Assembly (NCBI GenBank): GCA_964422035.1
Contig: CAYQZQ010000001.1
Coordinates: 441,013 to 505,012, forward strand
DNA length: 64,000 nucleotides
Direction: 5' to 3'
DNA from: an uncultured Pseudomonadales bacterium
GTDB taxonomy: Bacteria; Patescibacteriota; Microgenomatia; UBA1400; Chazhemtobacteraceae
Shown: positions 10,309 to 44,079 of the stretch, in pieces
Position numbering within the stretch: position 1 is the stretch's first letter
How the letters are laid out: every line of letters begins with the position of its first letter
The notes under the pieces: model-generated
What the model was told of the DNA's origin: nothing
Seen by the model: only the letters and a program-made list of their open reading frames with translations
The model's database searches: none
Position numbers and translations under genes: made by a program

Positions 10309-10309
10309 A

Positions 10310-13401: not shown

Positions 13402-13431
13402 CTGAAATCATGTCAAGCGCTGGTTTATTTT

Positions 13432-16581: not shown

Positions 16582-16593
16582 ATTATTCTTTTC

Positions 16594-16854: not shown

Positions 16855-16880
16855 AATATTTTTCTAATTTGTAATAGTAA

Positions 16881-17195: not shown

Positions 17196-17349
17196 ATATA
17201 TTATTAGGCGTAAAAGGAAAAGTCAATGGGAGGTTCTTCTGTAAAATTGGATCTAGTAAATTTTTATTATAATTTGATTTTTTTATTGTGAGCCATGTGG
17301 GTTTGGAACTTAGCTGTCCTTATAAATAACCTCTGTTAGATCTGATTTG

Positions 17350-18627: not shown

Positions 18628-18635
18628 AATTATTG

Positions 18636-18710
18636 TGACCCCACCGGGATTCGAACCCGGGTTACCAGGATGAGAACCTGGCGTCCTAGACCAGACTAGA
18701 CGATGGGGCC
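18636..18710 (-). tRNA. tRNA-Glu (anticodon CTC)
   Basis: Reverse complement is GGCCCCATCGTCTAGTCTGGTCTAGGACGCCAGGTTCTCATCCTGGTAACCCGGGTTCGAATCCCGGTGGGGTCA. Acceptor GGCCCCA pairs with TGGGGTC. Anticodon stem CCAGG/CCTGG with loop TTCTCAT. T-arm CCGGG-TTCGAAT-CCCGG. Confidence 0.85.
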
Positions 18711-28681: not shown

Positions 28682-28693
28682 TATACTTGTCTT

Positions 28694-29697: not shown

Positions 29698-30178
29698 TAA
29701 GAAGATCTTTAAATTCTGATAAAACTTTTTTGGTGTTCCGCCATTGATTGGAGAAATTCAAGTATTGGGATAATTTTGCTTGAGGTACCCATTTTATCTT
29801 TTTTAGCTCTTCTTCTTGCAGGCTGAGATTATTTTTATCACCGGTAAACTTGACCAAGAATTGAGATTGAACTTGGCCGCGAAAGTATTTACCTTTTTGC
29901 TGGTATTTCTTTTCGATTACTTTTTGGGGCCAGTTGTATTGTTTTTTATATTTACTTTTTGTAAGAATTTTAAAAGAGTCGCTTCCCAACTCTTCTTTTA
30001 GTTCTCTTTTTAGGGCATCTTTGTCTGTTTCACCATCCTCTACTCCTCCACCGGGAAACTTCCAGTGATCTTTCGAGTAGCCGTTTTTTTGAACGAGGAG
30101 AAAGTTTTTTTGATCATCGAAGACAATACCTATTGTGCTTTGGCGAAAAGGGAGTTTGTCTAAATCAGGAATTGACAT
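29690..30178 (-). CDS. NUDIX hydrolase
   Basis: Nudix box GGGVEDGETDKDALKRELKEELG. Overlaps the downstream Nudix gene by 8 nt. Confidence 0.8.
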   Translation of the reverse strand: MSIPDLDKLPFRQSTIGIVFDDQKNFLLVQKNGYSKDHWKFPGGGVEDGETDKDALKRELKEELGSDSFKILTKSKYKKQYNWPQKVIEKKYQQKGKYFRGQVQSQFLVKFTGDKNNLSLQEEELKKIKWVPQAKLSQYLNFSNQWRNTKKVLSEFKDLLSG

Positions 30179-31645: not shown

Positions 31646-31690
31646 AGGTTAAGGTTCCAATGTTTTTGGGGAAATCAAGAGTTTTGTAGG
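31646..31690. repeat. Copy of the tRNA-Gln downstream flank (aggttaaggttccaatgtttttggggaaatcaagagttttgtagg)
   Basis: About 85% identical to 43907..43958, which lies immediately downstream of tRNA-Gln. Confidence 0.55.
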
Positions 31691-31700
31691 GTGTATGTTC

Positions 31701-31760
31701 TGGTTGAGCAGGCAGGTCTCGAACCTAATCGTTCCATAAAATGAGACAAATGGGACAGTA
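31701..31760 (-). repeat. tRNA 3'-half-like pseudo-fragment A (T-arm, acceptor 3' strand and CCA; no 5' half)
   Basis: Reverse complement reads ...GATTAGGTTCGAGACCTGCCTGCTCAACCA, i.e. a GGTTCGAGACC T-loop and a CTGCTCA-A-CCA 3' end. No complementary 5' acceptor strand is nearby. Confidence 0.5.
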
Positions 31761-31784: not shown

Positions 31785-33683
31785 TTGTTTGGCTTTTTTG
31801 AAATTTGTTCTGTTGGAACTTTATTAACTCAATATATAAGCTATAATTCAACTAAGGAAATAACTATGGCGGAAAAGTCCCCTCCCCAATCATCACATGC
31901 GAAAGATATAGAGCACTTAGACAATCTCGTTCAAAGAGCCAGTACAAAAAAAGAGAATGAACCCAAACGCAAAAAGAGTGTTGTAGTTGTGGGTTCTACC
32001 TACTTTCCCAACTTTGGAGATAAAAATGAAAATATCCCTGACAATATAAGGGGCAATCTAGTATTAGAAAGTTTAAAGAAACTAAACAATGAAGGTATCG
32101 ACGTGTGTGTAGTCGATGGTAGTAGCTCCGAAGCTTTTGTGGAAAAAGTAAAAGAAATAAATCCAAAACGTTTTAGCGAAGGAGGTGTGAGTAGAGAACC
32201 TGCTGATATACATGATTTTATCAACACTCTAGAGGTTTCTGAAGAGGCAAGTAAAAAGGGGGAAGACATCCCTGGAATCATATGGTTTGTTGAACAACAG
32301 GAAGAGGGCTATAGCCAAGCAAGGGTTGAGGTAATAAAAAGCGTTACGGATGTTGTAACAGGCTCTGTAGATCACGAAGCCATTTTTCAAATGGAGTTAG
32401 AGAAAACTCCTTTGGTCGGCGAGATAGAAAAAACAATCAAACCGATTGTAGAGGGACGGGCAGATATAGTTATCCCAGATCGTGGCATAAGGGTTAAGGA
32501 TTTAGGAGATGATCGGGACGATTTCCGTAATTATCCAAGATTTCAAGCCGTTTCTGAGAGAAAAGCAAATCTCCTCATACACCAGATGCTTGTAGAAGCA
32601 GGACTAAGGGGGGCTGAAGACTCTGTGCTAGATCTATTCGGGGGGACTAGGGCAATCAAAGATAAGCCAGACCTTAGAAGATTATTTGGCGAAACCTTTA
32701 AAATACCAGAAGATAGTTCCTTTTGGGGAAAAATTAAACCAGAAGCTTATTCTAACGCCGTATACTTTCCTGTCTATATTGCTCTTGCACTGGGCCGAAA
32801 GGTAGATTCTGTACCAATTGATTTCTCCTATCCAAAGAGTCAAACAGCACTAGAGGCACAGGATGAAAGTTATAAAGAGAAAAGACAAGAGCAATTCAAT
32901 GATATCGTAGGAGGCTCAAAATTATTAATAGACTTCTTGGGTAAAAAATTGAAAAAAGTGAAACTCGCAGAAAAAGTTCTTGATACAAAAAGGGTCCTAA
33001 ATTATCTTAGAAAAAACTCTGTGATTGAACTTGAGGAATTGCAATGGGAAGAAAAAAACCAATTTAGTGAAGAATTACATTACGACAAAGCAGATTTACT
33101 TTCCATACTTGAAAAGATAGGGCAAGGCGAAAAGATTGTTGAGCAACTTGACGATGCACTTGCTTCCTATCTTTCTAATTTCGACGCTGGTCACTCTTTT
33201 TTGAATTGGGATGAGTTTAAACAAGTACGAAAAAGGATGAATCTTTTGAAAAAGGGAGTTAATCTCTTTGGAAAAGAAAAAGAGGCTGAAAAAATTTATG
33301 AAAAATATAGAGATCAAATACTCAACAATCTATATAATACAACGCTTATTTTTTATTTATTGAGAAACTCTGGTGCATCTAGAAATTTAGACATTGCCTC
33401 TTTCTTTGCTGAATTTGTCGAGGTTTCAAAAACGGACTACTCCATAGCGGTGCTTTTTGGCACTTCAGACGACGCAAAGCTAGACGAGCTAAATAGTTTG
33501 ACAAAAAAATTTAACTTAACTGCAGGGGAAAAAAGACAAATAATAGTAGGGCTATCAAGACAGGTAATAATAAAGAAGCCGGAAACAGATAAGAAAGAAC
33601 TTATTGATGATTTAGGAGAGATTTTTGAAATTCCTCCTGAGGAGTTATCAGTAATTAGTAAAAGAGTGTTAGAAATAAGCTAA
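31785..33683 (+). CDS. Large hypothetical protein (possible N-terminal GT-A-like nucleotide-sugar transferase fold; likely start at MAEKSPP, 31866)
   Basis: 632-aa ORF. VVVVGSTYFPNF...LESLKKLNNEGIDVCVVDGSSSE resembles the GT-A N-terminal pattern. The rest is unrecognised. Flanked by fragments A and B. Confidence 0.45.
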   Translation: MFGFFEICSVGTLLTQYISYNSTKEITMAEKSPPQSSHAKDIEHLDNLVQRASTKKENEPKRKKSVVVVGSTYFPNFGDKNENIPDNIRGNLVLESLKKLNNEGIDVCVVDGSSSEAFVEKVKEINPKRFSEGGVSREPADIHDFINTLEVSEEASKKGEDIPGIIWFVEQQEEGYSQARVEVIKSVTDVVTGSVDHEAIFQMELEKTPLVGEIEKTIKPIVEGRADIVIPDRGIRVKDLGDDRDDFRNYPRFQAVSERKANLLIHQMLVEAGLRGAEDSVLDLFGGTRAIKDKPDLRRLFGETFKIPEDSSFWGKIKPEAYSNAVYFPVYIALALGRKVDSVPIDFSYPKSQTALEAQDESYKEKRQEQFNDIVGGSKLLIDFLGKKLKKVKLAEKVLDTKRVLNYLRKNSVIELEELQWEEKNQFSEELHYDKADLLSILEKIGQGEKIVEQLDDALASYLSNFDAGHSFLNWDEFKQVRKRMNLLKKGVNLFGKEKEAEKIYEKYRDQILNNLYNTTLIFYLLRNSGASRNLDIASFFAEFVEVSKTDYSIAVLFGTSDDAKLDELNSLTKKFNLTAGEKRQIIVGLSRQVIIKKPETDKKELIDDLGEIFEIPPEELSVISKRVLEIS

Positions 33684-33686: not shown

Positions 33687-33736
33687 GTCTGAGCAGGTAG
33701 GTCTCGAACCTACTAATCCCATAACTGGACAGTGTA
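33687..33736 (-). repeat. tRNA 3'-half-like pseudo-fragment B (direct repeat of fragment A)
   Basis: Reverse complement is ...GATTAGTAGGTTCGAGACCTACCTGCTCAGAC, with a perfect T-arm GTAGG-TTCGAGA-CCTAC. It shares gagcaggNaggtctcgaacct plus the aatc..ccataa..ggacagt tail with fragment A. Starts 4 nt after the stop of the 632-aa gene. Confidence 0.5.
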
Positions 33737-33881: not shown

Positions 33882-34439
33882 ATGGTTGATATTACACTTA
33901 TTACAAGAAACGCCAAAAAGGTGCAATCAGCACAAGTTGCCATGAGCAGTCATGGTATAAAAGTTTTGCAAGAGAAGCTTGATACTCCTGAAATTCAGGA
34001 CAAAAATATTGATAAAGTTGCAGAATTTTCGGCGAAATTTGCCGCCGATGAATTAGGAAAGGCAGTTATAAAAGTTGATGTCGGTTTTGAAATAGAAGCC
34101 CTGAGCGGCTTCCCAGGACCTTTCTCTAAATTTATCAATGAGTGGCTACCTCCTGAAAAAGTATTGAGGCTTCTTGAGGGTGAGGAAAACAGAAATGCAA
34201 AATTTATTGATGTTGTTGCATTTAGCGAACCAGGAAAAGACCCTGTAAGTTTTAGATCAGAGACAATCGGTAAAATCTCATATCAATCGTCAGGTAATAA
34301 TGGTTGGGGCATTGACAAAATATTTATCCCAAAAGGATACAAGTGCACACTGGCAAGCCTAGAAAACGATAAGCGGGTAAAAGTTTGGAATACTGATCAT
34401 TGGAAGAAGCTTGCCCATTTTATTAAAAAAGAGAGATAA
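33882..34439 (+). CDS. Ham1/ITPase-family non-canonical purine NTP pyrophosphatase
   Basis: ITLITRNAKKVQSAQ and DVGFEIEALSGFPGPFSKF match the RdgB/HAM1 motifs. Confidence 0.75.
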   Translation: MVDITLITRNAKKVQSAQVAMSSHGIKVLQEKLDTPEIQDKNIDKVAEFSAKFAADELGKAVIKVDVGFEIEALSGFPGPFSKFINEWLPPEKVLRLLEGEENRNAKFIDVVAFSEPGKDPVSFRSETIGKISYQSSGNNGWGIDKIFIPKGYKCTLASLENDKRVKVWNTDHWKKLAHFIKKER

Positions 34440-34626: not shown

Positions 34627-35763
34627 CTAGGAGGCTTCCCAAGTGGAGTTTTCTATCAAATCTAAAGTATTTTTTGCATTTTGTTTAGCTTTTTTAGCAC
34701 CAGTTTTTAATATACCCGATACATAGTCTGGATCTTGAGTGATTTTTTGGCGCTTTTCTTGAAATTCATGAAGGAAATTTTTAGTTATCTTGGTTAATAT
34801 TTGTTTAAAATCACCCATAACTTTCTCACCCGACATATGTTTCTGAACTATTTGATCTATCATGTTTTTATCTTCTTCTGTTCTGGCAAGCTCTTGAGCC
34901 AAGAGAATATGACTTTTAAGTGTTTCGTTCATCTTCCCAGCAAAAGCTGTCTGTGCGCGTTTAATCTTATCTGCTGCTTCTTCAGGACTATCGGTCAGGA
35001 ATATTGCCCCTTTCGGGTTGGTTTTGCTCATCTTACCGTCACCTCTCAGTGACTGTAGCCTTAACGGAGCCTCAACTTCTAAAACTTTAGGTGTGGGCAA
35101 AATTTCTCCATATTGATTGTTGAATCTTCTAATCAACTTCCTGGTTACTTCCATGTGAGCTAGTTGGTCTTCACCTACAGGCACCTTGTGAGCTCTTTGA
35201 AGAATAATGTCTGATGCCATCATTACAGGATAAAGTAAAAGTAGGGCATTTGCAGTTTCAGGTCTTGAGTTTTTTTTGAGCTTATCTTTTAAAGTCGGAA
35301 CTCTTAGTAATTCAGAGGCACTAATGTGCCTAGATAGCCACGTCATTAAGGTAGTAACTTCTGGAGTAATCTCAGATTGAACAAATATATCAGTCCTTTC
35401 GGGATCAAGCCCCAGGGCAAGATAATCCGCTACTACTTCATTTGTGAATTTGCGAGCCTGATGAGGCTCATGATCTGTTAAGGCGTGTAGGTCCGCAACA
35501 AAAACCATGATCTCTTTCTCCTCATCCTGGAGTTCTACTATGGGCTTTACCGCACCTAAATAATTAGCAACGGTTAAATCGCCCGTTGGGCGAATACCCG
35601 TGAATATATCAACCATATAATCTTTTCTTTCCTTTTTTTCAGGACTATTTAGCATATCTTGATTCTTTAGTGTTTCAGACTTGTTTATAGTATCTTTTTC
35701 AGATTCTCTCATAGTTTGAGTAATTAAATCAAATCTGAGTACAAATGTCAATTTAGATTTCAT
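34627..35763 (-). CDS. trpS: Tryptophanyl-tRNA synthetase (full-length, with a ~60-aa N-terminal extension)
   Basis: TGIRPTGDLTVANYLGA (HIGH region), VFVADLHALT, and the KMSKS-type motif GDGKMSKTNPKG. Followed by the anticodon-binding helical domain. Confidence 0.85.
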   Translation of the reverse strand: MKSKLTFVLRFDLITQTMRESEKDTINKSETLKNQDMLNSPEKKERKDYMVDIFTGIRPTGDLTVANYLGAVKPIVELQDEEKEIMVFVADLHALTDHEPHQARKFTNEVVADYLALGLDPERTDIFVQSEITPEVTTLMTWLSRHISASELLRVPTLKDKLKKNSRPETANALLLLYPVMMASDIILQRAHKVPVGEDQLAHMEVTRKLIRRFNNQYGEILPTPKVLEVEAPLRLQSLRGDGKMSKTNPKGAIFLTDSPEEAADKIKRAQTAFAGKMNETLKSHILLAQELARTEEDKNMIDQIVQKHMSGEKVMGDFKQILTKITKNFLHEFQEKRQKITQDPDYVSGILKTGAKKAKQNAKNTLDLIENSTWEAS

Positions 35764-35803
35764 TATTAGAGGATAATCTGCATCAATGATATAATTTAAA
35801 AAA

Positions 35804-36856
35804 ATGGATAGACAAAAACAAGAAAAGATATCATCTGCAATTAAGCAAGTAATCGCTGGGAAAGATTTGGATAAAAAGAATTTGAAGGAAGTTTTTAAGA
35901 TTATATTGGAGCATGGGCTAGGAGATGCAAACGATGTTTCTTTTGGGGCTTTATTTGCAGCCCTACAGACTAAAGGTCCGACAGATAATGAGTTACTTGG
36001 CTTAATTGAGATTGTATTGAATTATGACAGAGAAAAAATTCCATACTCAGGGAATTCAAGCAATCTTTGTGGGGTAGTAGGAAGTGGTAAGGATGATATA
36101 AAAACTTTCAACATCAGCACTTGTGCGGCTTTTGTGGCCTCAGCAGCTGGAGTAAAAATGGTCAAAAATGGATCTCGCAGTGAATCTAGTATCGCTGGAA
36201 CCACGGACGTGCTTGAAGAACTAGGAGTAAAAATAAATCTTGAACCGGAAGAAGTTATTGAGGCTTTAGAAAAATATGGTATTACTTTTTGTGATGCAGG
36301 ACCTTATTTTCCCAGGATGAGTAGAGAATACGTTGGAAAATTTCTGTTTCCTCATCCACTGAGTTACACCTTATCCATAGCAAGTGGTTTAAGTTTTGAG
36401 AGGGTATTGTTTGGTGTTTCCTTTCCCGAAACTGAAAGGGTTGCTCATATTTTAAGAGAGCTTGGGTATCATGATTTCATGGTAGTTTCGGGTGAAGATG
36501 AAAAAGGTAGACGCTTCGATGAAATTTCAAATATCGGACCAACAAAGATCAGTGAGTATAAAAAGAATAAATTAAAAACTTATACTGCCAGTCCAGAAGA
36601 TTTTGGCATTAAATCCTCTGAGCATAAATACATTAAGGAAGGGGAGTCCGTAAAAGAGAACGCTAAAAAAATGCTAGATATTCTTAAAAATCAGACTGTC
36701 GCTCCAACGAGAGATGTTGTCTTGATAAACGCAGGAGCCCTCATTTATATAGCTGATAAAGCAGAAAGTATAAGAGAGGGCGTAAAAATGGCAAAAGAGG
36801 CCATAGAAAGCGGTGGGGCATTTGAGAAGTTCAAAAACTTGAGAGACTACAAATGA
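35804..36856 (+). CDS. TrpD-like protein (anthranilate phosphoribosyltransferase / glycosyl transferase family 3)
   Basis: CGVVGSGKDDIKTFNISTCAAFVASAAGVKMVKNGSRSESSIAGTTDVLEELGVK aligns with TrpD ..GTGGDG.NT.NISTAAAFV.AA.G..V.KHGNRS.SS..GSAD.LEA.G. The PRPP loop is altered (GSGKD instead of GTGGD). Confidence 0.75.
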   Translation: MDRQKQEKISSAIKQVIAGKDLDKKNLKEVFKIILEHGLGDANDVSFGALFAALQTKGPTDNELLGLIEIVLNYDREKIPYSGNSSNLCGVVGSGKDDIKTFNISTCAAFVASAAGVKMVKNGSRSESSIAGTTDVLEELGVKINLEPEEVIEALEKYGITFCDAGPYFPRMSREYVGKFLFPHPLSYTLSIASGLSFERVLFGVSFPETERVAHILRELGYHDFMVVSGEDEKGRRFDEISNIGPTKISEYKKNKLKTYTASPEDFGIKSSEHKYIKEGESVKENAKKMLDILKNQTVAPTRDVVLINAGALIYIADKAESIREGVKMAKEAIESGGAFEKFKNLRDYK

Positions 36857-38169
36857 ATAAAACAGTGAATCAAGGCTCCAAGTATACCGATTCTAAAATT
36901 GATTATATGGAGAGGGGTGAGTTGGAAAAATTACAATTAAAAAGGATAAAAGAAACGCTAAGGTGGGCATCTGAAAATTCTAGATTTTATCGTGAGTTGT
37001 ATAAAGAAATTTCAATAAAGACAATAAATAGTTTCTCAGATTTTAGAAAGCTACCTTTTACAACCAAAAAAGACTTGGTGAATAACTATCCTTTCGGAAA
37101 TCTGTGTGTGCCTCAAAAAGAAGTGGTTGAAGTTCATTTTTCTTCAGGTACAACAAATAGACCAGTTCCCACTTACATGACTCAAGAGGATTTATTATTG
37201 AGTAATGAGGCATTAGCGAGAACTTGGTATATGCAGGGGGTATGTTCGAATACCGTTTTTGGTATGCTTGCTTCTTATGGTCTATTTTCAGCTGGATTGC
37301 TGAATCATTATGCCATACAAAAGTTAGGGGCGTTTGTAATTCCTATTAGCTCATCTTCTACCGATAAGACAATAGGTTTGCTAAAAGACTATAGCATTAA
37401 TGCCACAGCAGCTGTAACTAGTTATTACTTATACCTTGTTAATAGGATAAGAGAATTAGGTTACTCTAAGGACAATTTTAATTTAGAGATTGCAATAGCA
37501 GGCGGAGAACCTTTTACTGAAAATCAACGAGACTATATTGAAAAGAATTTGGGGACTGAGTTGCTTGATCAATATGGTATTTCTGAGATTAATACCGGGT
37601 TGGCGGGAGAGTGTAAGCTCAAAAATGGATTACATATTTTAGCAGATTATGCATATCCAGAGATTGTTGATACTGAAACTGGGGAAGTCTGCGAGGAGGG
37701 GAAGTCTGGAGAATTAGTATTGACGACTCTTGCTAAAAGAGCTTCACCTCTTATTCGCTATAAGACAGGTGATATGGCGAGCATTACTTACAAGAAGTGT
37801 GGATGTGGAAGAACCTTACCTCGTATCTCAAAAATCATGAGAAGAAAAGGTGGTACATTGTTTTATAAAGGTAGGAAAATAGAGCGAGAATTTGTAATTA
37901 GTTTTATGGAAGATCAAGATGATTATCTGGATCCATACATTTGGAAGCTAATTTTGTCTGGCAATATGGGTAATCAGAAAATGTTTTTTAGGGTTTTGGT
38001 AAAAGGAGATAATAACCAAAAGGATTGCCTGAGAAAGCTTGAGATGGAATTTAAAAAGAAGGCAGGGATAAATGTTAAAGCTAAATTATTTTCTGAATCT
38101 GAATTAAAAAGCTTGGAAGAAGATAAGTTAAAACATTTTGTTGACAGACGCAAGGAGGTTGGTAAATAA
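36853..38169 (+). CDS. Adenylate-forming ligase of the PaaK / F390-synthetase / CapK family
   Basis: HFSSGTTNRPVPTYMTQEDL (the AMP-binding SSGTTG.P motif in PaaK-like spacing). 438 aa with the ANL two-domain layout. Confidence 0.75.
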   Translation: MNKTVNQGSKYTDSKIDYMERGELEKLQLKRIKETLRWASENSRFYRELYKEISIKTINSFSDFRKLPFTTKKDLVNNYPFGNLCVPQKEVVEVHFSSGTTNRPVPTYMTQEDLLLSNEALARTWYMQGVCSNTVFGMLASYGLFSAGLLNHYAIQKLGAFVIPISSSSTDKTIGLLKDYSINATAAVTSYYLYLVNRIRELGYSKDNFNLEIAIAGGEPFTENQRDYIEKNLGTELLDQYGISEINTGLAGECKLKNGLHILADYAYPEIVDTETGEVCEEGKSGELVLTTLAKRASPLIRYKTGDMASITYKKCGCGRTLPRISKIMRRKGGTLFYKGRKIEREFVISFMEDQDDYLDPYIWKLILSGNMGNQKMFFRVLVKGDNNQKDCLRKLEMEFKKKAGINVKAKLFSESELKSLEEDKLKHFVDRRKEVGK

Positions 38170-38170
38170 A

Positions 38171-39511
38171 ATGAGAAAGATATACACAATATTAGACGGA
38201 GAGAAATTGGCCGGGGATAGAGAGAAAGCAGTGATAAGCCCTTACTCTCTTAATCAGGTGGCCAATATTAATTATGCAAAATTAGAGAAAATTGAAAGAA
38301 AAAGAGCAAAAAAACATGATATGGCTTATCTGCGAAGAATACTACAAGATTTTGCAGATTATCTATCATCAGAATCCATTAAGTTAGCCAGAGTTGCCGC
38401 AGAAGAAACAGGGAGTCCAATAAAATATCACAAAAAAGACATTGAAGCTGTAATTGAATATATTGAGCATTTATGTGATGGTTTTGTATTTCAAGAAAGC
38501 CCATATGTTCATGAGTCTAAGGGAAAAGTCTTAATTCTGTTGTCGGCTAACGAGCCAGTTGTTTTAGGCACTATTCCATTATTAACGGCATTGATGACTG
38601 GGAACACTGTTTATCTTAAGCCATCTTCAAGGTCTCCATCTTATGCTTATTTAATCGTCAATAAGTTGCATAAATTAGGACTAGAAAGTGATCTTCTGCA
38701 TTTATTGCTTCCAGAAAAACAGGATATAGAGACCATCATTCAGAGACAAACTGTTGATTGTGTATTATCTTTTGGACATCACAAAACAAATAGAATATTA
38801 GGAGCTATTGCAGCTAAAGCAGGGGTCGAATTTATTCCAGAAAATGACGGAAACTGTTGGGCTTATGTTGATGAAGATTTTCCTTTTTGTAATAAGAAAT
38901 TGATATCAACAATAAAAAGGTCCGTGGTTAAGCACAATGGCCAGATGTGTGATTCATTACGCGGTTTATTAATTCACAATGAAGTTTTCGATGATATTTC
39001 CAAGGGAATAATAGAAAATATCAAAGATGTTAATATGGGTAATCCGTTAGATGTTTCGAGTGATGTAGGAGCTTTGCTAGTTGGTACAGCATCTAAGATC
39101 CCTGATCTTATAGAAGAAAGTAGTGGAAAGACCTATAAATACCATGTGGAAAACAATGTGGTGTCTCCTACTGTTGTTTTAGGTCCTCGTGCTGAATCGA
39201 CGTTAGTTGAAGATAGTGTTTTTGCGCCCGTTTTATGGATAAAGTCTGTTTCTGGACCACAAGAGGTAATTGAGTTATATAAGAGACATAATCACCATGG
39301 GTTATGCTTTTCAATATTCTCTAATGATGAATCCAGCATAGAGAAGTTAAGTAGAAACATCTCTGTGGGAAGGATAAATGTGAATTGCTCCCCGGTAGAA
39401 ATAGATGTTATGAGTCCGTGGGGAGGACTTAAAACGAGTGGTTATGGTGGGCCTACAAGTTGGTTTGACAGATTTACCAATAGAAAGGTAATAAACCATG
39501 GACAATTTTGA
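38171..39511 (+). CDS. Aldehyde dehydrogenase-superfamily protein (ProA / acylating ALDH-like); the ORF track gives 38138
   Basis: SFGHHKTNRILGAIAAKAGVEFIPENDGNCWAYVDED aligns with the ALDH FTGS..VG..I..AA...LELGGK motif. NGQMCDSLRGLLIH matches the catalytic-Cys region (compare ProA CNA.E.LLVH). An AAGGAGG SD precedes the ATG at 38171. Confidence 0.6.
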   Translation: MRKIYTILDGEKLAGDREKAVISPYSLNQVANINYAKLEKIERKRAKKHDMAYLRRILQDFADYLSSESIKLARVAAEETGSPIKYHKKDIEAVIEYIEHLCDGFVFQESPYVHESKGKVLILLSANEPVVLGTIPLLTALMTGNTVYLKPSSRSPSYAYLIVNKLHKLGLESDLLHLLLPEKQDIETIIQRQTVDCVLSFGHHKTNRILGAIAAKAGVEFIPENDGNCWAYVDEDFPFCNKKLISTIKRSVVKHNGQMCDSLRGLLIHNEVFDDISKGIIENIKDVNMGNPLDVSSDVGALLVGTASKIPDLIEESSGKTYKYHVENNVVSPTVVLGPRAESTLVEDSVFAPVLWIKSVSGPQEVIELYKRHNHHGLCFSIFSNDESSIEKLSRNISVGRINVNCSPVEIDVMSPWGGLKTSGYGGPTSWFDRFTNRKVINHGQF

Positions 39512-40154
39512 AATCGTAATAATAACTGGAGTTTCGGCAGATGGTAAGGTTACTCTTGGAGAAGGAGTAAGTAGCAAGAAGTTTGCGGCTTTGTTGTCTC
39601 CTGAGATGTCAGAACCGCTTCTAGAATTGAGACGGTGGGCGGATGTAATTTTAGTTGGGAGAAAAACAGTGAAGATAGACAACCCCTCTTTAAAATCCAA
39701 TGAAAATTCAGGACTAATTAGGGCAGTTATAGATAGAGAGATGCGCTTATCTTTAGACAAGAATATATTTGATGGGTCTGCGAGGACTCTAATTATTACA
39801 ACAAGCACAAACAAAGAGAAGGAGAGGCAGCTTAGACAAAAAGGTGTAGAAATTATAAGGATTTCACAAGAAGATTTTTTACCAGAATTAAAAAATGAGT
39901 TTGAGGAGCGTGGACTTTACAAGATAATGGTTGAAGGTGGAGGTAATTTGAATTATTTTATGTTAAAAAATCATTTTGTTGATAAAATCATCATCGCAAC
40001 TTTTCCTTTTATTGTAGGAGGAAAAGATACCCCAACTATAGTAGACGGAGAAAGCATAGCAACTATGAAAGAGGCAATAAAATTGAAATTAATTAGATCG
40101 TACTTGGTTGATAAAAATATGGTAGTAAATGAATTTGGGGTAGAAAATGACTAA
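39498..40154 (+). CDS. RibD C-terminal-type (dihydrofolate-reductase-like) reductase domain protein
   Basis: IVIITGVSADGKVTL...ADVILVGRKTV...KIMVEGGGNL matches the RibD_C / ArfC-like reductase layout. Confidence 0.65.
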   Translation: MDNFEIVIITGVSADGKVTLGEGVSSKKFAALLSPEMSEPLLELRRWADVILVGRKTVKIDNPSLKSNENSGLIRAVIDREMRLSLDKNIFDGSARTLIITTSTNKEKERQLRQKGVEIIRISQEDFLPELKNEFEERGLYKIMVEGGGNLNYFMLKNHFVDKIIIATFPFIVGGKDTPTIVDGESIATMKEAIKLKLIRSYLVDKNMVVNEFGVEND

Positions 40155-41040
40155 ACTTAAGAAAATTAAGCTGAAAAAATATTCTTCTTTAGATGATAAA
40201 TATTTTGCAAAAAGGCAATTATTATCAAAATCCTTAAATTTATCAAAAAAAGAACTTGGAGAGGTTTTTTCTGGTAAGGAAAAATACAAAATTGTTACAG
40301 GTTTTGGTCTAACAGGTTATTTTCATCTAGGAAGTAAATTGCTTCTAAACGAGGTAAAATTTTTTGCTGATCTTGGATTAGAAGCACAAATATTGTTGAG
40401 TGGATATGATACTAGAGTAAGAGGAACCACTAATTCCAAAAGCCCAGTACATATACAAAAAAGTATGTTGCAAATTATAGACAAACTAGACAAAAATGAA
40501 AAGATTAAAGTAGAGGAAAGATCCCCTGGAGTAGATTCCGAGATTTTCCAATCGATTAATGATTTAGTGAACAAAGATGATTTTGTTGAGTTTTATGGAC
40601 AAGAAATGGGTAAGAGTGGTAGAGATGCTTTGGTAGATATGGCAGCATCAATTATTGAAATTGATAATCAAAAGAAGATAGTTATATTGCTAGGGGTTGA
40701 TGAACTGGGTGAAGCTCTTTTCATCAGTCATGTTTATAAAAAGCTTGAGATGTCACCACCAGGTTTTTTATTCAATCATGTTGTACTCGGATATGACTCC
40801 AACAAAATGGGCAAGTCGCGTCCGGAATTTAGTTTAGTTATTTCATCGTCTGCAGAGGAAGAGATTAAGAAGGTTGAAAAATATCTTCGAAAAGATGGAG
40901 ATCACCGGAAATGTCCTTGTTATTATATAAATTTGTTCTCAAAGTATGGAGATCCCGAAATATCTACATGTAAGCGCGTGCATAAAAAATTACCTACGAT
41001 TATTAAAAAAGAATGTAAGGAGTTCGTGTCAAGCGACTAA
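40147..41040 (+). CDS. Truncated class-I aminoacyl-tRNA-synthetase-like paralog (TrpRS/TyrRS catalytic domain only, with a Cys-rich C-terminal tail)
   Basis: HIGH-like VTGFGLTGYFHLGS, KMSKS-like NKMGKSRPEF. No anticodon-binding domain. C-terminus HRKCPCYY..STCKRVH. 297 aa. Confidence 0.6.
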   Translation: MTKLKKIKLKKYSSLDDKYFAKRQLLSKSLNLSKKELGEVFSGKEKYKIVTGFGLTGYFHLGSKLLLNEVKFFADLGLEAQILLSGYDTRVRGTTNSKSPVHIQKSMLQIIDKLDKNEKIKVEERSPGVDSEIFQSINDLVNKDDFVEFYGQEMGKSGRDALVDMAASIIEIDNQKKIVILLGVDELGEALFISHVYKKLEMSPPGFLFNHVVLGYDSNKMGKSRPEFSLVISSSAEEEIKKVEKYLRKDGDHRKCPCYYINLFSKYGDPEISTCKRVHKKLPTIIKKECKEFVSSD

Positions 41041-41043
41041 AAT

Positions 41044-41748
41044 ATGAAGACATTAAAGCAAGCCTATAACGATTTTTTTGATCAGAAGTTTAACGTAGAT
41101 GTGGAGCCAGTTTATGACAATAAGGTTCAAAGTATATTAAAGTATGTTGATCATAATAAGCAGGTGCTAGACGTAGGGTGTTTGACAGGTTACTTGGGGT
41201 ATTTTTGTTTAAAAAAGAAAAACAGTACTAAGGTGGTGGGAATTGATTTTGTCGAAAACGCTTTAAAGCATGCTCGTAAGCTAGGTATTGATGCACGCTA
41301 TGGTAACGTCGAAAATGGCAGTTTGCCAATTCAGGATTCTGAGCGCTTTGACGTAATAATAGTTTCTGAGATAATTGAGCATTTGGTTGATCCTCTTGTT
41401 GTGTTGGAAAAACTCAAAAAGGTGCTCAAGAAAAACGGAAAGATAATAATTTCTACACCAAATATGGCTTATTTTCAATATAGATTTGAACTGCTAATGG
41501 GAAAGTTGCCAGATTTTTGTGAGTTTCGTGGTAAATATCCAGAAAGACCCTACAATTTTCAACACAAAACTTTATTTACTAAAAAAGTACTGGTCGAGAC
41601 ATTGGAAATGGCAGAATTAAAGCTTAAGAAACTTGATAGTCATAGCACATATAAGAGTAAGTTGGAGAAGTTTTTTGATCCTTTTGAAAAACTATTTCCA
41701 GGTGTGTTTGTTAAGAATATGATTGCAGTTGTTACTAAAAAGGATTAA
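41044..41748 (+). CDS. Class I SAM-dependent methyltransferase
   Basis: Motif I VLDVGCLTGYLG, motif post-I VGIDF, and DVIIVSEIIEHL. Confidence 0.8.
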   Translation: MKTLKQAYNDFFDQKFNVDVEPVYDNKVQSILKYVDHNKQVLDVGCLTGYLGYFCLKKKNSTKVVGIDFVENALKHARKLGIDARYGNVENGSLPIQDSERFDVIIVSEIIEHLVDPLVVLEKLKKVLKKNGKIIISTPNMAYFQYRFELLMGKLPDFCEFRGKYPERPYNFQHKTLFTKKVLVETLEMAELKLKKLDSHSTYKSKLEKFFDPFEKLFPGVFVKNMIAVVTKKD

Positions 41749-41754
41749 TGTTCA

Positions 41755-42633
41755 ATGAAGGCAGATAACAAGAAAATTCGAGAGTATGTACACAGAATAA
41801 AAGGTGATAAATCGAAGGTAAAAAGACTTCCAACAGAAAGAGAAAGTTATGTTTACTCGATTGAAGATCGTTTGATCTATAAAATTATGCCTGAGTCTCT
41901 TAACAGAAGTACTTATCAGGAGATTAACAGACTGCTTGAAGACAGCGGGGTGCCTTTTCCTAATTTAATTGATGAATGGAAAGAGGGAGGATTTCATCAC
42001 TTAATCCAGGAGAAGAAGTCTGGGAAAAAGTTGTCGGCAATGAATAACAAAGAAAAGGTAAAATATTATCCCGAAGTCGCAAGCATATTATATAAAATAC
42101 ATATGATTAAAATTAATTCAGTAGGGCCTATTGAAGAAGCTGGTGGTAAATTTTCAAATTGGGCAAGTTATATACGAAATTTTAAAAAATTTTCAGAGAA
42201 CCATGGGGATGTGGTTCCAGAATATGTTACAAAAGATGATTACGAAATAATATTAAGGGCTGTAGAAGATTTGGCACGGAGAAAAAATAATCCATGTTTG
42301 GTTCACGGTGATTTTATGGAAAAAAATATTTTAGTCGAGGGAGGGAAAGTAACTGCCATACTGGATTGGGATGTTGCAATAGCTGGTGATCGGATCATGG
42401 ATTTTGCTACTTTTCGTCTTTGGGATGGAATATTTATTAACAACTCACTAATTGAAGAATATTACCCTGAGAAAAAACTATTTGAACAAGACAAATTTGA
42501 GTTCTATTGTAATCGTTATCAGCTGTATTCAGGATTTATTACACTTGACTTTTTAATTAGTAACGAAGAGCAAGACTTGTTTAATTTACCAGAAAAAATT
42601 AACAGAATCTGCTCTAAAATACAAAAAAGGTGA
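41755..42633 (+). CDS. Aminoglycoside-phosphotransferase (APH)-family small-molecule kinase
   Basis: Catalytic loop LVHGDFMEKNILV and the ILDWDVAIAGDRIMDFA motif. Confidence 0.7.
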   Translation: MKADNKKIREYVHRIKGDKSKVKRLPTERESYVYSIEDRLIYKIMPESLNRSTYQEINRLLEDSGVPFPNLIDEWKEGGFHHLIQEKKSGKKLSAMNNKEKVKYYPEVASILYKIHMIKINSVGPIEEAGGKFSNWASYIRNFKKFSENHGDVVPEYVTKDDYEIILRAVEDLARRKNNPCLVHGDFMEKNILVEGGKVTAILDWDVAIAGDRIMDFATFRLWDGIFINNSLIEEYYPEKKLFEQDKFEFYCNRYQLYSGFITLDFLISNEEQDLFNLPEKINRICSKIQKR

Positions 42634-43871
42634 AGATACTATTCGTTCCTTTAAGCGAAACAGCGCTTGCTCATATTGTCAGGTGCTTAGTCATTGCGCT
42701 CGAAGCTAAAAAAGAGGGCCATGAGGTGCTTTTTACAAGCATAAGGGGGAGAACTGACTTGATTGATGGATTTGATATTCCTGTGTATAAAAATGGGATT
42801 AAACTTCTAAAAAATACAGAGGGTGAGATCGACAAAATATCACAAATCAGGAGATACGAGATTGAAGCAGCTAGATATTTTCATCCGGATGTGATTATAA
42901 ATGATCCAGTAATAGCCGGTTCATTTGCTGCAAGAAAGTTAAACTTACCATTGGTCTTAGTAACAAACTCGACACTTTTGCCGAATTATTCTGGATATTA
43001 TGGATATTCCAAGGTAGGAAAGGATTTGACTAGTAATTTCGGATACTTTGGTAATTATTACCCACGCAAGGTTATGTTTCCAAAAATTTTGAAAGTTTTT
43101 GACAGGCTTGATATCAAAAATATACCAAGACATTATAATAAATTATTTGATAGAAATTTAAAGATAATACCAAGCATCCCCCTACTTGATCCTCTAGATA
43201 ATCCAGACAGCCTAACACATTATGTAGGGCCCCTTTTGCTTGAAAACCACTGGAAACCTGATAGTGAGTTGGTTAATTTTGTAAATAAGGTAAGGGGTCC
43301 TCTGGTTGCAGTAAATTTTGGAGGGTCAGTATTTTTAGAAAATACTTATCATAGAACAATTGAAGTATTACTTTCTTGTGGCTATAAAATTGTAGTCGGA
43401 ATTGGCCCGAATTTTGATATTGAAAAATTCCAGAATAAATATGGAAAGGATAATAATTTGCTTATTAGACAATATACCCCAAATGAATATTTGGCAGAAA
43501 GAGCAAAATTTTTCATAATTTCCGGTGGACACGGAACACTAACTCAGACTTTATTGAATGGTTGTCCTGTTTTATGCATACCTCATAACGTGGACCAGAG
43601 CACATTTGCTCAGAGGGTTGAAGAATTAGGTTGTGGAATTAATGTGATGAGGATTGATAAACCGATGAAGGATCTTGATTATTGGAGGAAAAAAGCGAGC
43701 AATCTATCTAAAAATAAGTTATTCGATGCGATTAAGAAACTAGAGGTAAACGTTGAGAATTTTAGAACTAATTGTCGTCAAGTCGGTGATCAACTGTCTA
43801 AACATTCGAATCCTGCGAAAAAAATTTTGGATCTCACCGAAGAGTTTGTCGACCAAAAGCAACGCTTGTAA
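42630..43871 (+). CDS. GT1-family UDP-glycosyltransferase (MGT / UGT-like)
   Basis: C-terminal donor-binding signature FIISGGHGTLTQTLLNGCPVLCIPHNVDQSTFAQRVEELGCGI. Confidence 0.75.
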   Translation: MKILFVPLSETALAHIVRCLVIALEAKKEGHEVLFTSIRGRTDLIDGFDIPVYKNGIKLLKNTEGEIDKISQIRRYEIEAARYFHPDVIINDPVIAGSFAARKLNLPLVLVTNSTLLPNYSGYYGYSKVGKDLTSNFGYFGNYYPRKVMFPKILKVFDRLDIKNIPRHYNKLFDRNLKIIPSIPLLDPLDNPDSLTHYVGPLLLENHWKPDSELVNFVNKVRGPLVAVNFGGSVFLENTYHRTIEVLLSCGYKIVVGIGPNFDIEKFQNKYGKDNNLLIRQYTPNEYLAERAKFFIISGGHGTLTQTLLNGCPVLCIPHNVDQSTFAQRVEELGCGINVMRIDKPMKDLDYWRKKASNLSKNKLFDAIKKLEVNVENFRTNCRQVGDQLSKHSNPAKKILDLTEEFVDQKQRL

Positions 43872-43906: not shown

Positions 43907-43958
43907 AAGGTTAAAATCTCGTTCCAATGTTTTGAAGGAAAATCAAAGGTTTTGCAGG
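43907..43958. repeat. tRNA-Gln downstream flank (homolog of 31646..31690)
   Basis: aaggttaaaatctcgttccaatgttttgaaggaaaatcaaaggttttgcagg. Confidence 0.55.
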
Positions 43959-44005
43959 ATATAAAGGCATAAAACAGGTAGTAAGGTCGGAGGGGGTGCC
44001 CGTAC

Positions 44006-44079
44006 TGGTTGCCAGGCTAGGATTCGAACCTAGATTGACGGTGTCAGAGACCGCAGTCCTACCATTAGACGACCTGGCA
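44006..44079 (-). tRNA. tRNA-Gln (anticodon CTG)
   Basis: Reverse complement is TGCCAGGTCGTCTAATGGTAGGACTGCGGTCTCTGACACCGTCAATCTAGGTTCGAATCCTAGCCTGGCAACCA. Acceptor TGCCAGG/CCTGGCA. Anticodon stem GCGGT/ACCGT with loop CTCTGAC. T-arm CTAGG-TTCGAAT-CCTAG. CCA is encoded. Confidence 0.85.

What the first reader, a model, noticed from the sequence alone, without database searches (positions are those of the whole stretch)
40147..41040. Anticodon-domain-less TrpRS/TyrRS-like paralog with HIGH and KMSKS motifs retained and a Cys-rich tail, next to a full-length TrpRS
Seen in sequence: the 297-aa protein carries HLGS (a HIGH-type motif) and KMGKS but ends about 75 aa later in a C-x-C...C segment, with no helical anticodon-binding domain. 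A complete TrpRS (HIGH-type TVAN, KMSKT, with an N-terminal extension) lies 5 kb upstream on the opposite strand.

Established knowledge: truncated aaRS paralogs act as amino-acid ligases in natural-product pathways, and duplicated TrpRS genes serve as self-resistance in producers of TrpRS inhibitors (indolmycin, chuangxinmycin).

Inference: the mini enzyme activates Trp or an aryl amino acid for transfer to a non-tRNA acceptor. The nearby TrpRS could be a resistant copy.
Basis: partly seen in the sequence, partly recalled or inferred. Interest (0 to 1): 0.7.

Follow-up and report, generated by a model that had tools for sequence, protein, structure and literature searches.

The report
Shortened TrpRS paralog in conserved pathway cluster
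A small, intact relative of the enzyme that loads tryptophan onto tRNA sits in a horizontally acquired, cross-domain conserved gene cluster that always carries a full tryptophan-tRNA ligase, which points to an undescribed small-molecule pathway tied to tryptophan charging.

Summary
The 297-aa ORF is real. It belongs to a rare family of about 11 representative sequences among 1.8 billion proteins. The family derives from archaeal-type TrpRS: profile E 1e-44 and VIA Z 25.4 against A. pernix TrpRS. The ATP motifs are invariant (H60/G62 of HLGS, KMGK 220-223). The side-chain-specifying Asp is replaced by Ser168. The C-terminal helical domain is about 40 residues shorter than in true archaeal TrpRS, so it is shortened rather than absent. 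The Cys tail is a degenerate copy of the archaeal TrpRS Cys motif.

The gene is fifth in a tight eight-gene operon: TrpD-like phosphoribosyltransferase, PaaK-like ligase, ALDH, RibD_C reductase, mini-aaRS, methyltransferase, APH kinase, glycosyltransferase. A full bacterial TrpRS is transcribed divergently. The core of this cluster recurs in other CPR bacteria, in a MAG labelled Gammaproteobacteria and in an archaeon, each time beside a TrpRS. In one genome RibD_C and the mini-aaRS are fused.

The host genome has a separate housekeeping trpS. None of 60 relatives has the mini gene. The genome lacks Trp and riboflavin pathway genes.

Best reading: an ATP-dependent ligase that acts after RibD_C in an unknown pathway, with the TrpRS as immunity or supply enzyme. 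The product and the amino-acid substrate are not shown. I found no published description of this cluster.

The parts
40147..41040 (+). Mini class-Ic aaRS paralog (297 aa), derived from archaeal-type TrpRS. HLGS at 60-63, G-x-DE at 183-186, KMGKS at 220-224, Cys at 256/258/275/290.
39498..40154 (+). RibD_C-type reductase (218 aa), archaeal-type ribosylamino-pyrimidine reductase relative scoring below the equivalog cut-off. Overlaps the mini gene by 8 nt. Fused to the mini-aaRS in P0005.
35804..36856 (+). TrpD-like phosphoribosyltransferase (350 aa), a distinct subfamily with changed acceptor-site signatures that are invariant across cluster copies.
36853..38169 (+). PaaK-like aryl-acid adenylating ligase (438 aa).
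38138..39511 (+). Aldehyde dehydrogenase family protein (457 aa; TTG start is uncertain). Catalytic Cys and Glu are present.
41044..41748 (+). SAM-dependent methyltransferase (234 aa).
   Evidence: conserved in L007 and L014
41755..42633 (+). APH-family small-molecule kinase (292 aa).
   Evidence: conserved in L007 and L014
42630..43871 (+). MGT/EryCIII-like glycosyltransferase (413 aa).
   Evidence: conserved in L007 and L014
34627..35763 (-). Second, full-length bacterial (CPR-type) TrpRS, probably starting at Met18 (35712). Co-conserved with the cluster.
44006..44079 (-). tRNA-Gln(CTG) at the right edge of the low-GC island.
31697..31739 (.). tRNA-3'-half-like fragment. A second copy lies at 33687-33724. 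These are possible left borders of tandem insertions.

Best explanation
The ORF encodes a functional, neofunctionalised paralog of archaeal-type TrpRS. It keeps the adenylate-forming active site but has a remodelled substrate pocket and lacks the distal part of the tRNA anticodon-binding domain.

It works as an ATP-dependent ligase inside a horizontally acquired pathway. It acts directly after, or together with, the RibD_C reductase. The inferred order is as follows. The TrpD-like enzyme couples PRPP to an amine. RibD_C reduces the N-ribosyl to an N-ribityl phosphate. The mini-aaRS adenylates an amino-acid-like carboxylate and transfers it to this non-tRNA acceptor. ALDH and the PaaK-like ligase supply or attach an aryl acid. 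The methyltransferase, kinase and glycosyltransferase tailor or mask the product.

The co-conserved full TrpRS is most simply the enzyme that must stay functional in the presence of the product (immunity). This implies that the product interferes with tryptophan charging, as an aminoacyl-adenylate-like mimic would.

Shown here: homology, motif conservation, pocket changes, cluster conservation, the fusion, the accessory status of the island, and the second trpS.

Inferred only: the order of reactions, the substrates, the product and the immunity role.
For: Homology and fold:
- The family profile hits A. pernix TrpRS at E 1.4e-44.
- Foldseek and VIA place archaeal and eukaryotic TrpRS on top (Z 22-25), with MjTyrRS at Z 21.5.

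ATP site kept:
- H60, G62, D185, K220, M221, G222 and K223 are invariant in 11 sequences that are only 28-52% identical.

Pocket changed:
- Ser168 replaces the Asp of the QAAD/MAAD segment. The Asp is kept in the more distant paralogs P0014 and P0017-22, in one of the two presumed true archaeal TrpRS (the other has His), and in both bacterial TrpRS.
- Met165 stands where the Gln does. The acidic residue that binds the amino group is kept as Asp88.

Tail: 69-77 aa against 110-115 aa in true archaeal TrpRS.

Cluster conservation:
- L005/L006.
- L007, which has all eight operon genes.
- L012.
- L014 in a MAG labelled Gammaproteobacteria.
- L018 in a Saccharibacteria MAG.
- Archaeal L024, with RibD_C, TrpD-like, ALDH, a paralog and TrpRS.

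Other points:
- P0005 is a RibD_C-mini fusion.
- The genes overlap tightly in the window.
- The island is accessory: low GC, next to a tRNA, 0 of 60 relatives carry the mini gene, and nearly all relatives have a single trpS.
- No IGPS, TrpE or lumazine synthase is found in a 96%-complete genome, so the TrpD-like and RibD_C genes are not part of the Trp or riboflavin pathways.
- The cluster contains a bacterial-type TrpRS in bacteria and an archaeal-type TrpRS in the archaeon. What is conserved is TrpRS function, not one gene lineage.
- Precedent: AcmD/AcmF and SbzA (PMC12945691).
Against: - No biochemical data exist. The substrate, acceptor and product are unknown.
- In G001 the cluster TrpRS is the only trpS found. 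This fits immunity only if the sensitive copy was lost. It fits a supply or co-regulation role equally well.
- The cluster TrpRS belongs to the common CPR TrpRS clade and shows no obvious resistance signature.
- One locus carries a tRNA-Trp gene inside the cluster, which hints at tRNA involvement.
- The model still superposes end to end on a 306-aa functional TyrRS, so tRNA binding cannot be excluded.
- The archaeal version lacks the PaaK-like ligase, methyltransferase, kinase and glycosyltransferase. The 'antibiotic-like' tailoring genes are therefore not core.
Confidence: 0.45

Rival explanations
1. Aminoacyl-tRNA-dependent transferase, like AcmF in the ascamycin cluster. The neighbouring TrpRS makes Trp-tRNA(Trp). 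The mini paralog moves the tryptophanyl group from the tRNA to the pathway intermediate.
For: A full TrpRS is next to the paralog in every sufficiently long locus. A bacterial-identity tRNA-Trp (G73) gene lies between the TrpRS and RibD_C-mini genes in L018. AcmD/AcmF and SbzA work this way (PMC12945691).
Against: AcmF and cyclodipeptide synthases have lost the ATP and activation residues. Here HIGH and KMSKS, including the second Lys, are invariant. The mini protein is archaeal-type, whereas the tRNA and TrpRS beside it are bacterial-type. No tRNA gene is found in the other loci.
Confidence: 0.15
2. A genuine but non-canonical tRNA synthetase, of the TrpRS-A or TrpRS-A-like kind described in CPR bacteria and DPANN archaea. 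It would charge tRNA-Trp under tryptophan limitation or with an analogue.
For: Mukai et al. 2017 (PMC5370408) found archaeal-type TrpRS homologs in Microgenomates next to bacterial-type TrpRS genes. The host here is Microgenomates-like. The fold is complete enough to align with a 306-aa TyrRS. Cluster proteins are Trp-poor.
Against: NCBIfam TrpRS equivalog score is 41 bits against a cut-off of 451. The specificity Asp is lost and the tail is about 40 aa short. The only tRNA-Trp in the genome has G73 and lies far away. The fusion to a reductase and the constant company of TrpD-like and ALDH enzymes are not expected for a translation enzyme.
Confidence: 0.12
3. Part of a tryptophan-linked primary or salvage pathway, such as a cofactor or metabolite made from an aromatic amine. 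The TrpRS would sit there for co-regulation by tryptophan supply, not for immunity.
For: The core cluster exists in an archaeon without the tailoring genes. In G001 the cluster TrpRS is the sole trpS found. Cluster proteins are Trp-poor, as expected for genes expressed when charged tRNA-Trp is scarce. Mukai et al. favoured a role in tryptophan metabolism for related paralogs.
Against: The family is very rare (42 hits among 1.8 billion representatives). It is not found in 60 of 60 relatives and lies on a low-GC island by a tRNA. No other Trp pathway genes are in the genome. The bacterial versions add kinase, glycosyltransferase and methyltransferase genes typical of secondary metabolism or drug modification.
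Confidence: 0.2
4. A decaying pseudo-enzyme left over from a transferred archaeal TrpRS gene.
For: It is short, highly divergent from any curated TrpRS model, and has an incomplete Cys motif.
Against: The frame is intact. The family is conserved across three lineages with invariant catalytic motifs. The fold is confident. Operon position is conserved and one genome carries a fusion.
Confidence: 0.02

Closest known systems
Archaeal-type TrpRS (A. pernix 3a04, P. horikoshii 3jxe)
   Same: Same fold over nearly the whole length (Z 25.4, 292 residues). Shares the N-terminal segment, HIGH, the G-x-D motif, KMSKS, and the position of the Cys motif.
   Different: About 16% identity. The fourth HIGH residue is Ser, Asn or Thr. 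Ser168 stands where A. pernix TrpRS has the Asp of its QAAD segment, and Met165 where it has the Gln. V50 and L83 stand where P. horikoshii TrpRS has its indole-binding Tyr77 and Gln111. The third Cys is lost. About 40 C-terminal residues are missing. It sits in an enzyme operon in a bacterium.
[quoted passage not shown] 2017, PMC5370408)
   Same: Archaeal-type TrpRS homologs with insertions and deletions. They are rare, occur in addition to a canonical TrpRS, are found in Microgenomates and archaea, and sit next to a bacterial-type TrpRS gene. Function is unknown.
   Different: Those were described with a tRNA-Trp(A73) gene and an 'ORF1'. No TrpD-like, ALDH or RibD_C neighbours are mentioned. 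Here no A73 tRNA-Trp is present. I could not compare sequences directly, so identity with 'TrpRS-A-like' remains open.
AcmD/AcmF of the ascamycin cluster, and SbzA (PMC12945691)
   Same: An extra full-length aaRS plus a truncated paralog of the same aaRS type in one cluster. The product is an aminoacyl-adenylate mimic and the extra aaRS is the resistant copy.
   Different: Those are class II AlaRS or class I IleRS. AcmF lost its ATP and activation residues and uses aminoacyl-tRNA. Here the ATP motifs are invariant and the two proteins come from different domain types (archaeal-type mini, bacterial-type TrpRS).
MshC (Cys:GlcN-Ins ligase), a CysRS paralog (from my own knowledge, not tested here)
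   Same: A class I aaRS paralog that keeps the adenylation motifs, lacks anticodon recognition, and transfers the activated amino acid to a small-molecule acceptor.
   Different: Different aaRS subclass, pathway and acceptor. No sequence relation was tested.
Cyclodipeptide synthases
   Same: Small class-Ic-like Rossmann-fold enzymes of about 240-300 aa that act in secondary metabolism.
   Different: They lack HIGH and KMSKS and use two aminoacyl-tRNAs. The mini protein keeps both motifs and matches TrpRS at the sequence level. No cyclodipeptide synthase appeared in the 50 best rows of either structural list.
Resistant second TrpRS of indolmycin or chuangxinmycin producers (from my own knowledge)
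   Same: A second trpS encoded beside biosynthetic genes in a genome that also has a housekeeping trpS.
   Different: No relation to those clusters was found. Resistance is untested. The cluster copy belongs to the ordinary CPR TrpRS clade.

Membership tests
Class Ic aaRS catalytic domain (PF00579) | Pfam model above the gathering score | tested here: met
   31.1 bits against 21.1. All family members scanned also hit PF00579.
Class Ic aaRS catalytic domain (PF00579) | HIGH and KMSKS ATP-binding signatures | tested here: met
   HLGS at 60-63 and KMGKS at 220-224. H60, G62, K220, M221 and K223 are invariant.
Class Ic aaRS catalytic domain (PF00579) | Rossmann fold superposable on TrpRS/TyrRS | tested here: met
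   Model pLDDT 89.6. Z 25.4 to 3a04 and 21.5 to MjTyrRS.
Canonical tryptophan-tRNA ligase | Curated equivalog model above its cut-off | tested here: not met
   Best NCBIfam TrpRS model scores 41 bits against a cut-off of 451.
Canonical tryptophan-tRNA ligase | Side-chain-reading Asp (QAAD/MAAD) or the Tyr/Gln pair | tested here: not met
   Ser168, Val50 and Leu83 stand at those positions.
Canonical tryptophan-tRNA ligase | Full C-terminal anticodon-binding domain | tested here: not met
   73-aa tail against 110-115 aa. The profile alignment stops at residue 339 of 372 in 3a04.
Canonical tryptophan-tRNA ligase | Aminoacylation of tRNA-Trp | not testable with these tools
   Needs an enzyme assay.
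[4Fe-4S] TrpRS (C-x22-C-x6-C-x2-C) | Four cysteines in the motif spacing | tested here: not met
   C256, C275 and C290 match Cys1, 2 and 4. Cys3 is replaced. Only C256 is near-invariant in the family.
Cyclodipeptide synthase | Loss of the ATP-binding motifs, with aminoacyl-tRNA as substrate | tested here: not met
   The motifs are retained and invariant.
Cyclodipeptide synthase | Closest structural neighbours are cyclodipeptide synthases | tested here: inconclusive
   None appeared in the 50 rows shown by Foldseek or VIA. Lower ranks were not seen.
AcmF-type aaRS-like transferase with a resistant aaRS partner | Truncated aaRS paralog co-located with a full extra aaRS of the same specificity class | tested here: met
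   The mini gene plus a TrpRS occur in the window and in L005, L012, L014, L018 and L024.
AcmF-type aaRS-like transferase with a resistant aaRS partner | Paralog has lost the activation residues | tested here: not met
   HIGH and KMSKS are invariant.
Self-resistance TrpRS | A separate housekeeping trpS in the same genome | tested here: met
   In G000: C2:29022-30002 at 305.6 bits, plus the window copy. Not met in G001, where only the cluster copy was found.
Self-resistance TrpRS | Lower sensitivity to the cluster product | not testable with these tools
   The product is unknown. Needs an assay.
TrpRS-A-like (Mukai 2017) | Archaeal-type TrpRS homolog with indels, present in addition to a canonical TrpRS in CPR bacteria or archaea | tested here: met
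TrpRS-A-like (Mukai 2017) | Linked tRNA-Trp with A73 | tested here: not met
   The host's single tRNA-Trp has G73 and lies far away. The tRNA-Trp in L018 also has G73.
TrpRS-A-like (Mukai 2017) | Linked 'ORF1' protein | not tested
   No ORF1 sequence was available to compare.
Anthranilate phosphoribosyltransferase (neighbour gene) | Equivalog model above its cut-off | tested here: met
   TIGR01245 scores 243.1 bits against 199.05.
Anthranilate phosphoribosyltransferase (neighbour gene) | Canonical GTGGD and KHGN signatures, and the rest of the Trp pathway | tested here: not met
   The cluster copies invariantly read G-S-G-K-D and K-N-G-S, and a different segment replaces the R-T-x-F-N region. 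No IGPS or TrpE is found in the genome.

The most novel reading that the evidence does not exclude
The cluster is a mobile pathway shared between archaea, CPR bacteria and other bacteria. It would build a tryptophanyl-adenylate-like inhibitor on a 'pseudo-nucleotide' scaffold: an amine phosphoribosylated by the TrpD-like enzyme and reduced by RibD_C. A TrpRS-derived, tRNA-independent ligase would add the aminoacyl part, and the linked TrpRS would act as the immunity gene. That would be the first aaRS-targeting antimetabolite pathway known from ultra-small episymbiotic microbes, and a new enzymatic use of the TrpRS scaffold.
Probability: 0.25. Interest if true: 0.85.

Novelty: new variant of a known kind. 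Interest (0 to 1): 0.68.

Why it matters
aaRS paralogs recruited for small-molecule chemistry are few: MshC, AcmF, SbzA and the cyclodipeptide synthases. Each of these opened a new enzymology.

This one differs in three ways. It comes from TrpRS. It keeps its ATP site. It is tied by operon position, and in one genome by fusion, to a phosphoribosyltransferase/reductase pair that is orphaned from the Trp and riboflavin pathways.

The constant presence of a working TrpRS, bacterial-type in bacteria and archaeal-type in the archaeon, links the pathway to tryptophan charging. It also offers a handle for resistance-guided discovery.

The cluster would be a rare case of specialised metabolism in CPR bacteria, whose genomes of under 1 Mb are thought to lack it almost entirely. 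It may also explain the enigmatic extra TrpRS homologs reported in CPR bacteria and DPANN archaea in 2017.

Tried and rejected
- First AlphaFold run with two sequences gave pLDDT 45.8 and was unusable. It was replaced by a 37-sequence run.
- First scan of genome contigs found nothing.
- hhalign of the family against the bacterial TrpRS gave 8% probability and a one-residue register shift in the MAAS segment. I did not use it.
- Complex prediction of RibD_C with the mini-aaRS gave no verdict.
- The look-up of sequencing runs listed no RNA holder. The only holder is a microbial-mat metagenome, which may be the source sample.
- The promoter and terminator scan gave counts no higher than shuffled sequence and was uninformative.
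- The genome of the archaeal locus L024 is not held, so its trpS count could not be taken.
- The listing of cluster members returned no names.
- Literature searches for this gene combination found no description.
- A dedicated-tRNA (code-expansion cassette) idea was dropped. No tRNA gene is conserved with the cluster, and the tRNA-Gln beside it is an ordinary CTG isoacceptor.
- The Trp-biosynthesis and riboflavin-biosynthesis readings of TrpD-like and RibD_C were rejected, because the remaining pathway genes were not found.
- No cyclodipeptide synthase appeared among the top 50 structural rows.
Full report
**What is at the coordinates**

The ORF at 40147-41040 (+) has an ATG start and encodes 297 aa. 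HLGS lies at residues 60-63 and KMGKS at 220-224. 73 residues follow, with Cys at 256, 258, 275 and 290. Pfam assigns only PF00579 (31.1 bits, cut-off 21.1). NCBIfam gives a weak match to an archaeal-type TrpRS model (41 bits, cut-off 451).

It scores 257.5 bits on TIGR00233 against a cut-off of 176.75, and TVAN and KMSKT are visible. Its likely start is Met18, which gives 361 aa and a 91-bp divergent intergenic region.

**The host**

The window lies in an 813-kb genome that is 96% complete. The closest named relatives of its GluRS are Microgenomates-group CPR bacteria, at about 59% identity. The only sequencing run that holds the stretch is a microbial-mat metagenome.

**A rare family, not a one-off**

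A word-indexed search of 5.8 billion proteins found one relative, at 52% identity. An exhaustive profile search of 1.84 billion representatives found 42 hits. These fall into three groups:
- about 11 'core' proteins of roughly 300 aa at 28-52% identity;
- a more distant set of 310-360 aa;
- ordinary archaeal TrpRS- and TyrRS-like proteins.

In the core family the following are invariant: T51-G-F-G, T56, G57, H60, G62, S85, D88, M165, G183, D185, E186, K220-M-G-K223. C256 is nearly invariant.

**Fold and origin**

With 37 aligned sequences AlphaFold gives pLDDT 89.6. Foldseek ranks A. pernix TrpRS (3a04) first, at E 1e-14 and TMq 0.75. VIA-align gives Z 25.4 with 292 of 297 residues aligned to 3a04 residues 23-358. 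Eukaryotic and archaeal TrpRS follow at Z 22-25, and the 306-aa M. jannaschii TyrRS variants at Z 21.5. The family profile matches 3a04 at E 1.4e-44 and P. horikoshii TrpRS at 3e-19. The protein therefore derives from archaeal-type TrpRS, although it sits in a bacterium whose own two TrpRS are bacterial-type.

**The C-terminus**

Three helices follow KMGKS, and they overlay the proximal part of the TrpRS C-terminal domain.

The Cys segment aligns with the Cys motif of A. pernix and P. horikoshii TrpRS. This is the motif type that binds a [4Fe-4S] cluster in T. maritima TrpRS, according to the abstract of PMC2954223. C256, C275 and C290 match Cys1, 2 and 4, and Cys3 is replaced. Only C256 is conserved across the family.

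The protein ends about 7 residues after the last Cys, where 3a04 continues for 33 more. Tails after KMSKS measure 69-77 aa in the core family, 57-104 aa in the distant set (where the motif could be located), and 110-115 aa in the two presumed true archaeal TrpRS. About 40 distal residues of the tRNA-binding domain are therefore gone.

**The active site**

The ATP-side residues are kept. These are the first His and the Gly of HIGH, the Asp that binds the ribose 2'-OH in the AIDQ/GEDQ motif (D185), and both lysines of KMSKS.

The amino-acid side is remodelled. The residue roles come from PMC2831299 and the mapping from the alignments:
- The Tyr and Gln that read the indole N in P. horikoshii TrpRS correspond to V50 and L83.
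- The Glu that salt-bridges the amino group is kept as the invariant D88.
- The Gln of the QAAD segment is the invariant M165.
- The Asp of QAAD/MAAD is the residue that reads the indole N in bacterial TrpRS. It is kept in A. pernix TrpRS, in one of the two presumed true archaeal TrpRS (the other has His), in both bacterial TrpRS of this genome and in all the distant paralogs. In 9 of 11 core members it is Ser168.

This pattern indicates an enzyme that still forms an adenylate from something with an ammonium group. It also means the substrate cannot be assumed to be tryptophan.

**The surroundings**

The gene is fifth in a tightly packed, same-strand run, with overlaps or gaps of a few bases:
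- TrpD-like phosphoribosyltransferase, 35804-36856
- PaaK-like ligase, 36853-38169
- ALDH, 38138-39511
- RibD_C reductase, 39498-40154
- mini-aaRS, 40147-41040
- methyltransferase, 41044-41748
- APH kinase, 41755-42633
- MGT-like glycosyltransferase, 42630-43871

GC is 0.33-0.37 between 30 and 44 kb, against 0.42-0.45 to the right. A tRNA-Gln gene lies at the right edge.

**Conservation of the cluster**

| Locus | Source | Genes |
|---|---|---|
| L005/L006 | mini protein 52% identical | methyltransferase nearby, TrpRS (divergent), TrpD-like, ligase, ALDH, RibD_C, mini |
| L007 | not named | all eight operon genes in the same order, with RibD_C and mini fused into one 526-aa protein |
| L012 | not named | TrpRS as the first gene of the same-strand operon |
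| L014 | MAG labelled Gammaproteobacteria | glycosyltransferase-kinase-methyltransferase on one strand; TrpRS-TrpD-ligase-ALDH-RibD_C-mini on the other |
| L018 | Saccharibacteria MAG | TrpRS, a tRNA-Trp gene, RibD_C, mini |
| L024 | archaeal (neighbours include eIF2-gamma and TruD) | RibD_C fused to a xylose-isomerase-like barrel, TrpD-like, ALDH and the paralog P0014 on one strand; an archaeal TrpRS and a further TrpRS paralog on the other |

The core is therefore TrpD-like, ALDH, RibD_C and the TrpRS paralog, next to a real TrpRS. The PaaK-like ligase, methyltransferase, kinase and glycosyltransferase are bacterial additions.

The TrpD-like proteins of all these loci share invariant departures from canonical TrpD. 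They read G-S-G-K-D for GTGGD and K-N-G-S for KHGN, and a different segment stands where canonical enzymes have R-T-x-F-N-x-L-G-P-L. This marks a separate subfamily, with probably a different acceptor.

**The two TrpRS**

The host genome has a canonical trpS elsewhere (C2, 336 aa, 305.6 bits) and a TyrRS. The window copy is 34% identical to that canonical trpS.

Among 60 relatives of the same family or order, 55 have one trpS, two have two, and three incomplete genomes (80-88% complete) show none. None of the 60 has the mini gene. The island and its TrpRS are therefore accessory here.

The cluster TrpRS belongs to the widespread CPR-type TrpRS clade, at 58-65% identity to Parcubacteria- and Paceibacteria-group proteins. 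In a quick tree the cluster-linked copies lie inside that clade without forming one exclusive group.

In the MAG behind L014 the cluster copy is the only trpS found. The TrpRS next to the cluster is bacterial-type in bacteria and archaeal-type in the archaeon. It is thus the TrpRS function that travels with the pathway.

**What the pathway is not**

No IGPS, chorismate-binding (TrpE) or lumazine synthase gene is found in the 96%-complete genome. The TrpD-like and RibD_C genes therefore do not serve Trp or riboflavin synthesis.

No tRNA gene is conserved with the cluster. The host's single tRNA-Trp has G73 and lies far away.

**Mechanism proposed**

The only enzymatically coherent pair is TrpD-like followed by RibD_C. 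The first forms an N-(5-phosphoribosyl)amine from PRPP. The second, whose relatives reduce an N-ribosylamine to an N-ribitylamine, reduces it. This is inference from family chemistry.

The fusion and the 8-nt overlap place the mini-aaRS at the next or the same step. With an intact adenylation site and a shortened tRNA-binding domain, the simplest reading is a tRNA-independent ligase. It would activate an amino-acid-like acid and pass it to the ribityl- or ribosyl-phosphate intermediate, which itself resembles a nucleotide.

ALDH resembles ordinary aldehyde-oxidising enzymes most closely. PaaK resembles phenylacetate-CoA ligases (231 bits). Together they would make and activate an aryl-acetic-type acid.

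The ascamycin cluster shows that an extra full aaRS plus a truncated paralog can together make an aminoacyl-adenylate mimic, with the extra aaRS being both supplier and resistant copy (PMC12945691). By analogy the linked TrpRS is best read as immunity, possibly also as supplier.

I put 0.45 on this overall picture. My confidence is much higher, about 0.85, that the protein is a functional, neofunctionalised TrpRS paralog working in this conserved pathway. It is much lower for any specific product.

**Rivals**

- An AcmF-like Trp-tRNA-dependent transferase fits the constant TrpRS neighbour and the tRNA-Trp gene in L018. It conflicts with the invariant ATP motifs.
[quoted passage not shown] It conflicts with the lost specificity Asp, the short tail, the lack of an A73 tRNA-Trp and the fusion to a reductase.
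- A tryptophan-linked primary or salvage pathway fits the archaeal core cluster and the Trp-poor proteins. It conflicts with the extreme rarity and the island context.
- Pseudo-enzyme decay is contradicted by conservation.

**Relation to the literature**

I found no paper describing this gene combination. The nearest published objects are the TrpRS-A-like proteins of Mukai et al. 2017, whose function is stated to be unclear. I could not compare sequences with them, so the mini family may be the same as, or a sister of, that group. The link to TrpD-like, ALDH and RibD_C and the fusion are not mentioned there.

**Verdict**

The object is a new variant of a known kind: an aaRS paralog recruited to small-molecule metabolism, with a linked full aaRS.

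Noticed in passing
window 31654-31739, 33687-33724, 43921-44079: Two tRNA-3'-half-like fragments, 86% alike, bracket an unannotatable 632-aa ORF (31785-33683). The first fragment is preceded by a 32-nt stretch that is 75% like the stretch beside the intact tRNA-Gln at 44006-44079. This looks like tandem insertions at a tRNA gene. No integrase was seen.
   Followed up: partly
window 34627-43871; L005, L007, L012, L014, L024: Cluster proteins are tryptophan-poor. In the window there are 16 W in 3060 aa (0.52%), against 1.35-1.54% in the genome's ORFs of every GC class. The mini-aaRS, TrpD-like enzyme and methyltransferase have none. Other loci show 0.34-0.63%, against 0.70-1.10% in their flanks. 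This echoes the Trp-free TrpRS-A1 and ORF1 proteins noted in PMC5370408.
   Followed up: partly
L024 2073-4156 and 8001-8972; L026 1506-4804: Archaeal contigs carry three TrpRS paralogs side by side. In L024 the 336-aa paralog appears to have lost both HIGH and KMSKS in my alignment. L026/L027 have 386-, 360- and 348-aa paralogs in tandem, followed by an alcohol dehydrogenase.
   Followed up: partly
L018 899-970: A bacterial-identity tRNA-Trp(CCA) gene (A1-U72, G73, no encoded CCA) lies between the cluster TrpRS and RibD_C-mini in a Saccharibacteria MAG. Whether it is that genome's only tRNA-Trp is unknown.
   Followed up: partly
L007 3850-5430 (P0005); L024 4319-5686: There are two different fusions of the RibD_C reductase. 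One is to the mini-aaRS (526 aa). The other is to an AP_endonuc_2 / xylose-isomerase-like barrel (455 aa), which could be a sugar isomerase step.
   Followed up: no
window 35804-36856 and orthologs (A5): The cluster TrpD-like proteins pass the trpD equivalog cut-off but share invariant non-canonical signatures in the PRPP and acceptor loops. Automatic annotation as anthranilate phosphoribosyltransferase is therefore probably wrong in detail.
   Followed up: partly
G002 and G026 (relatives): Two of 60 relatives also carry two trpS genes but no mini-aaRS. Their second copies were not examined.
   Followed up: no
window 1-18000 and 18635-18710: A second low-GC stretch (0.34-0.38) ends near a tRNA-Glu(CTC) gene and may be another island.
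   Followed up: no
window 28151-30178: A run of RNA- and nucleotide-repair-type genes lies just left of the island: a 2'-5' RNA ligase-like gene, an NYN nuclease and two NUDIX hydrolases. A Ham1-type NTP pyrophosphatase (33882-34439) sits next to the cluster TrpRS.
   Followed up: no
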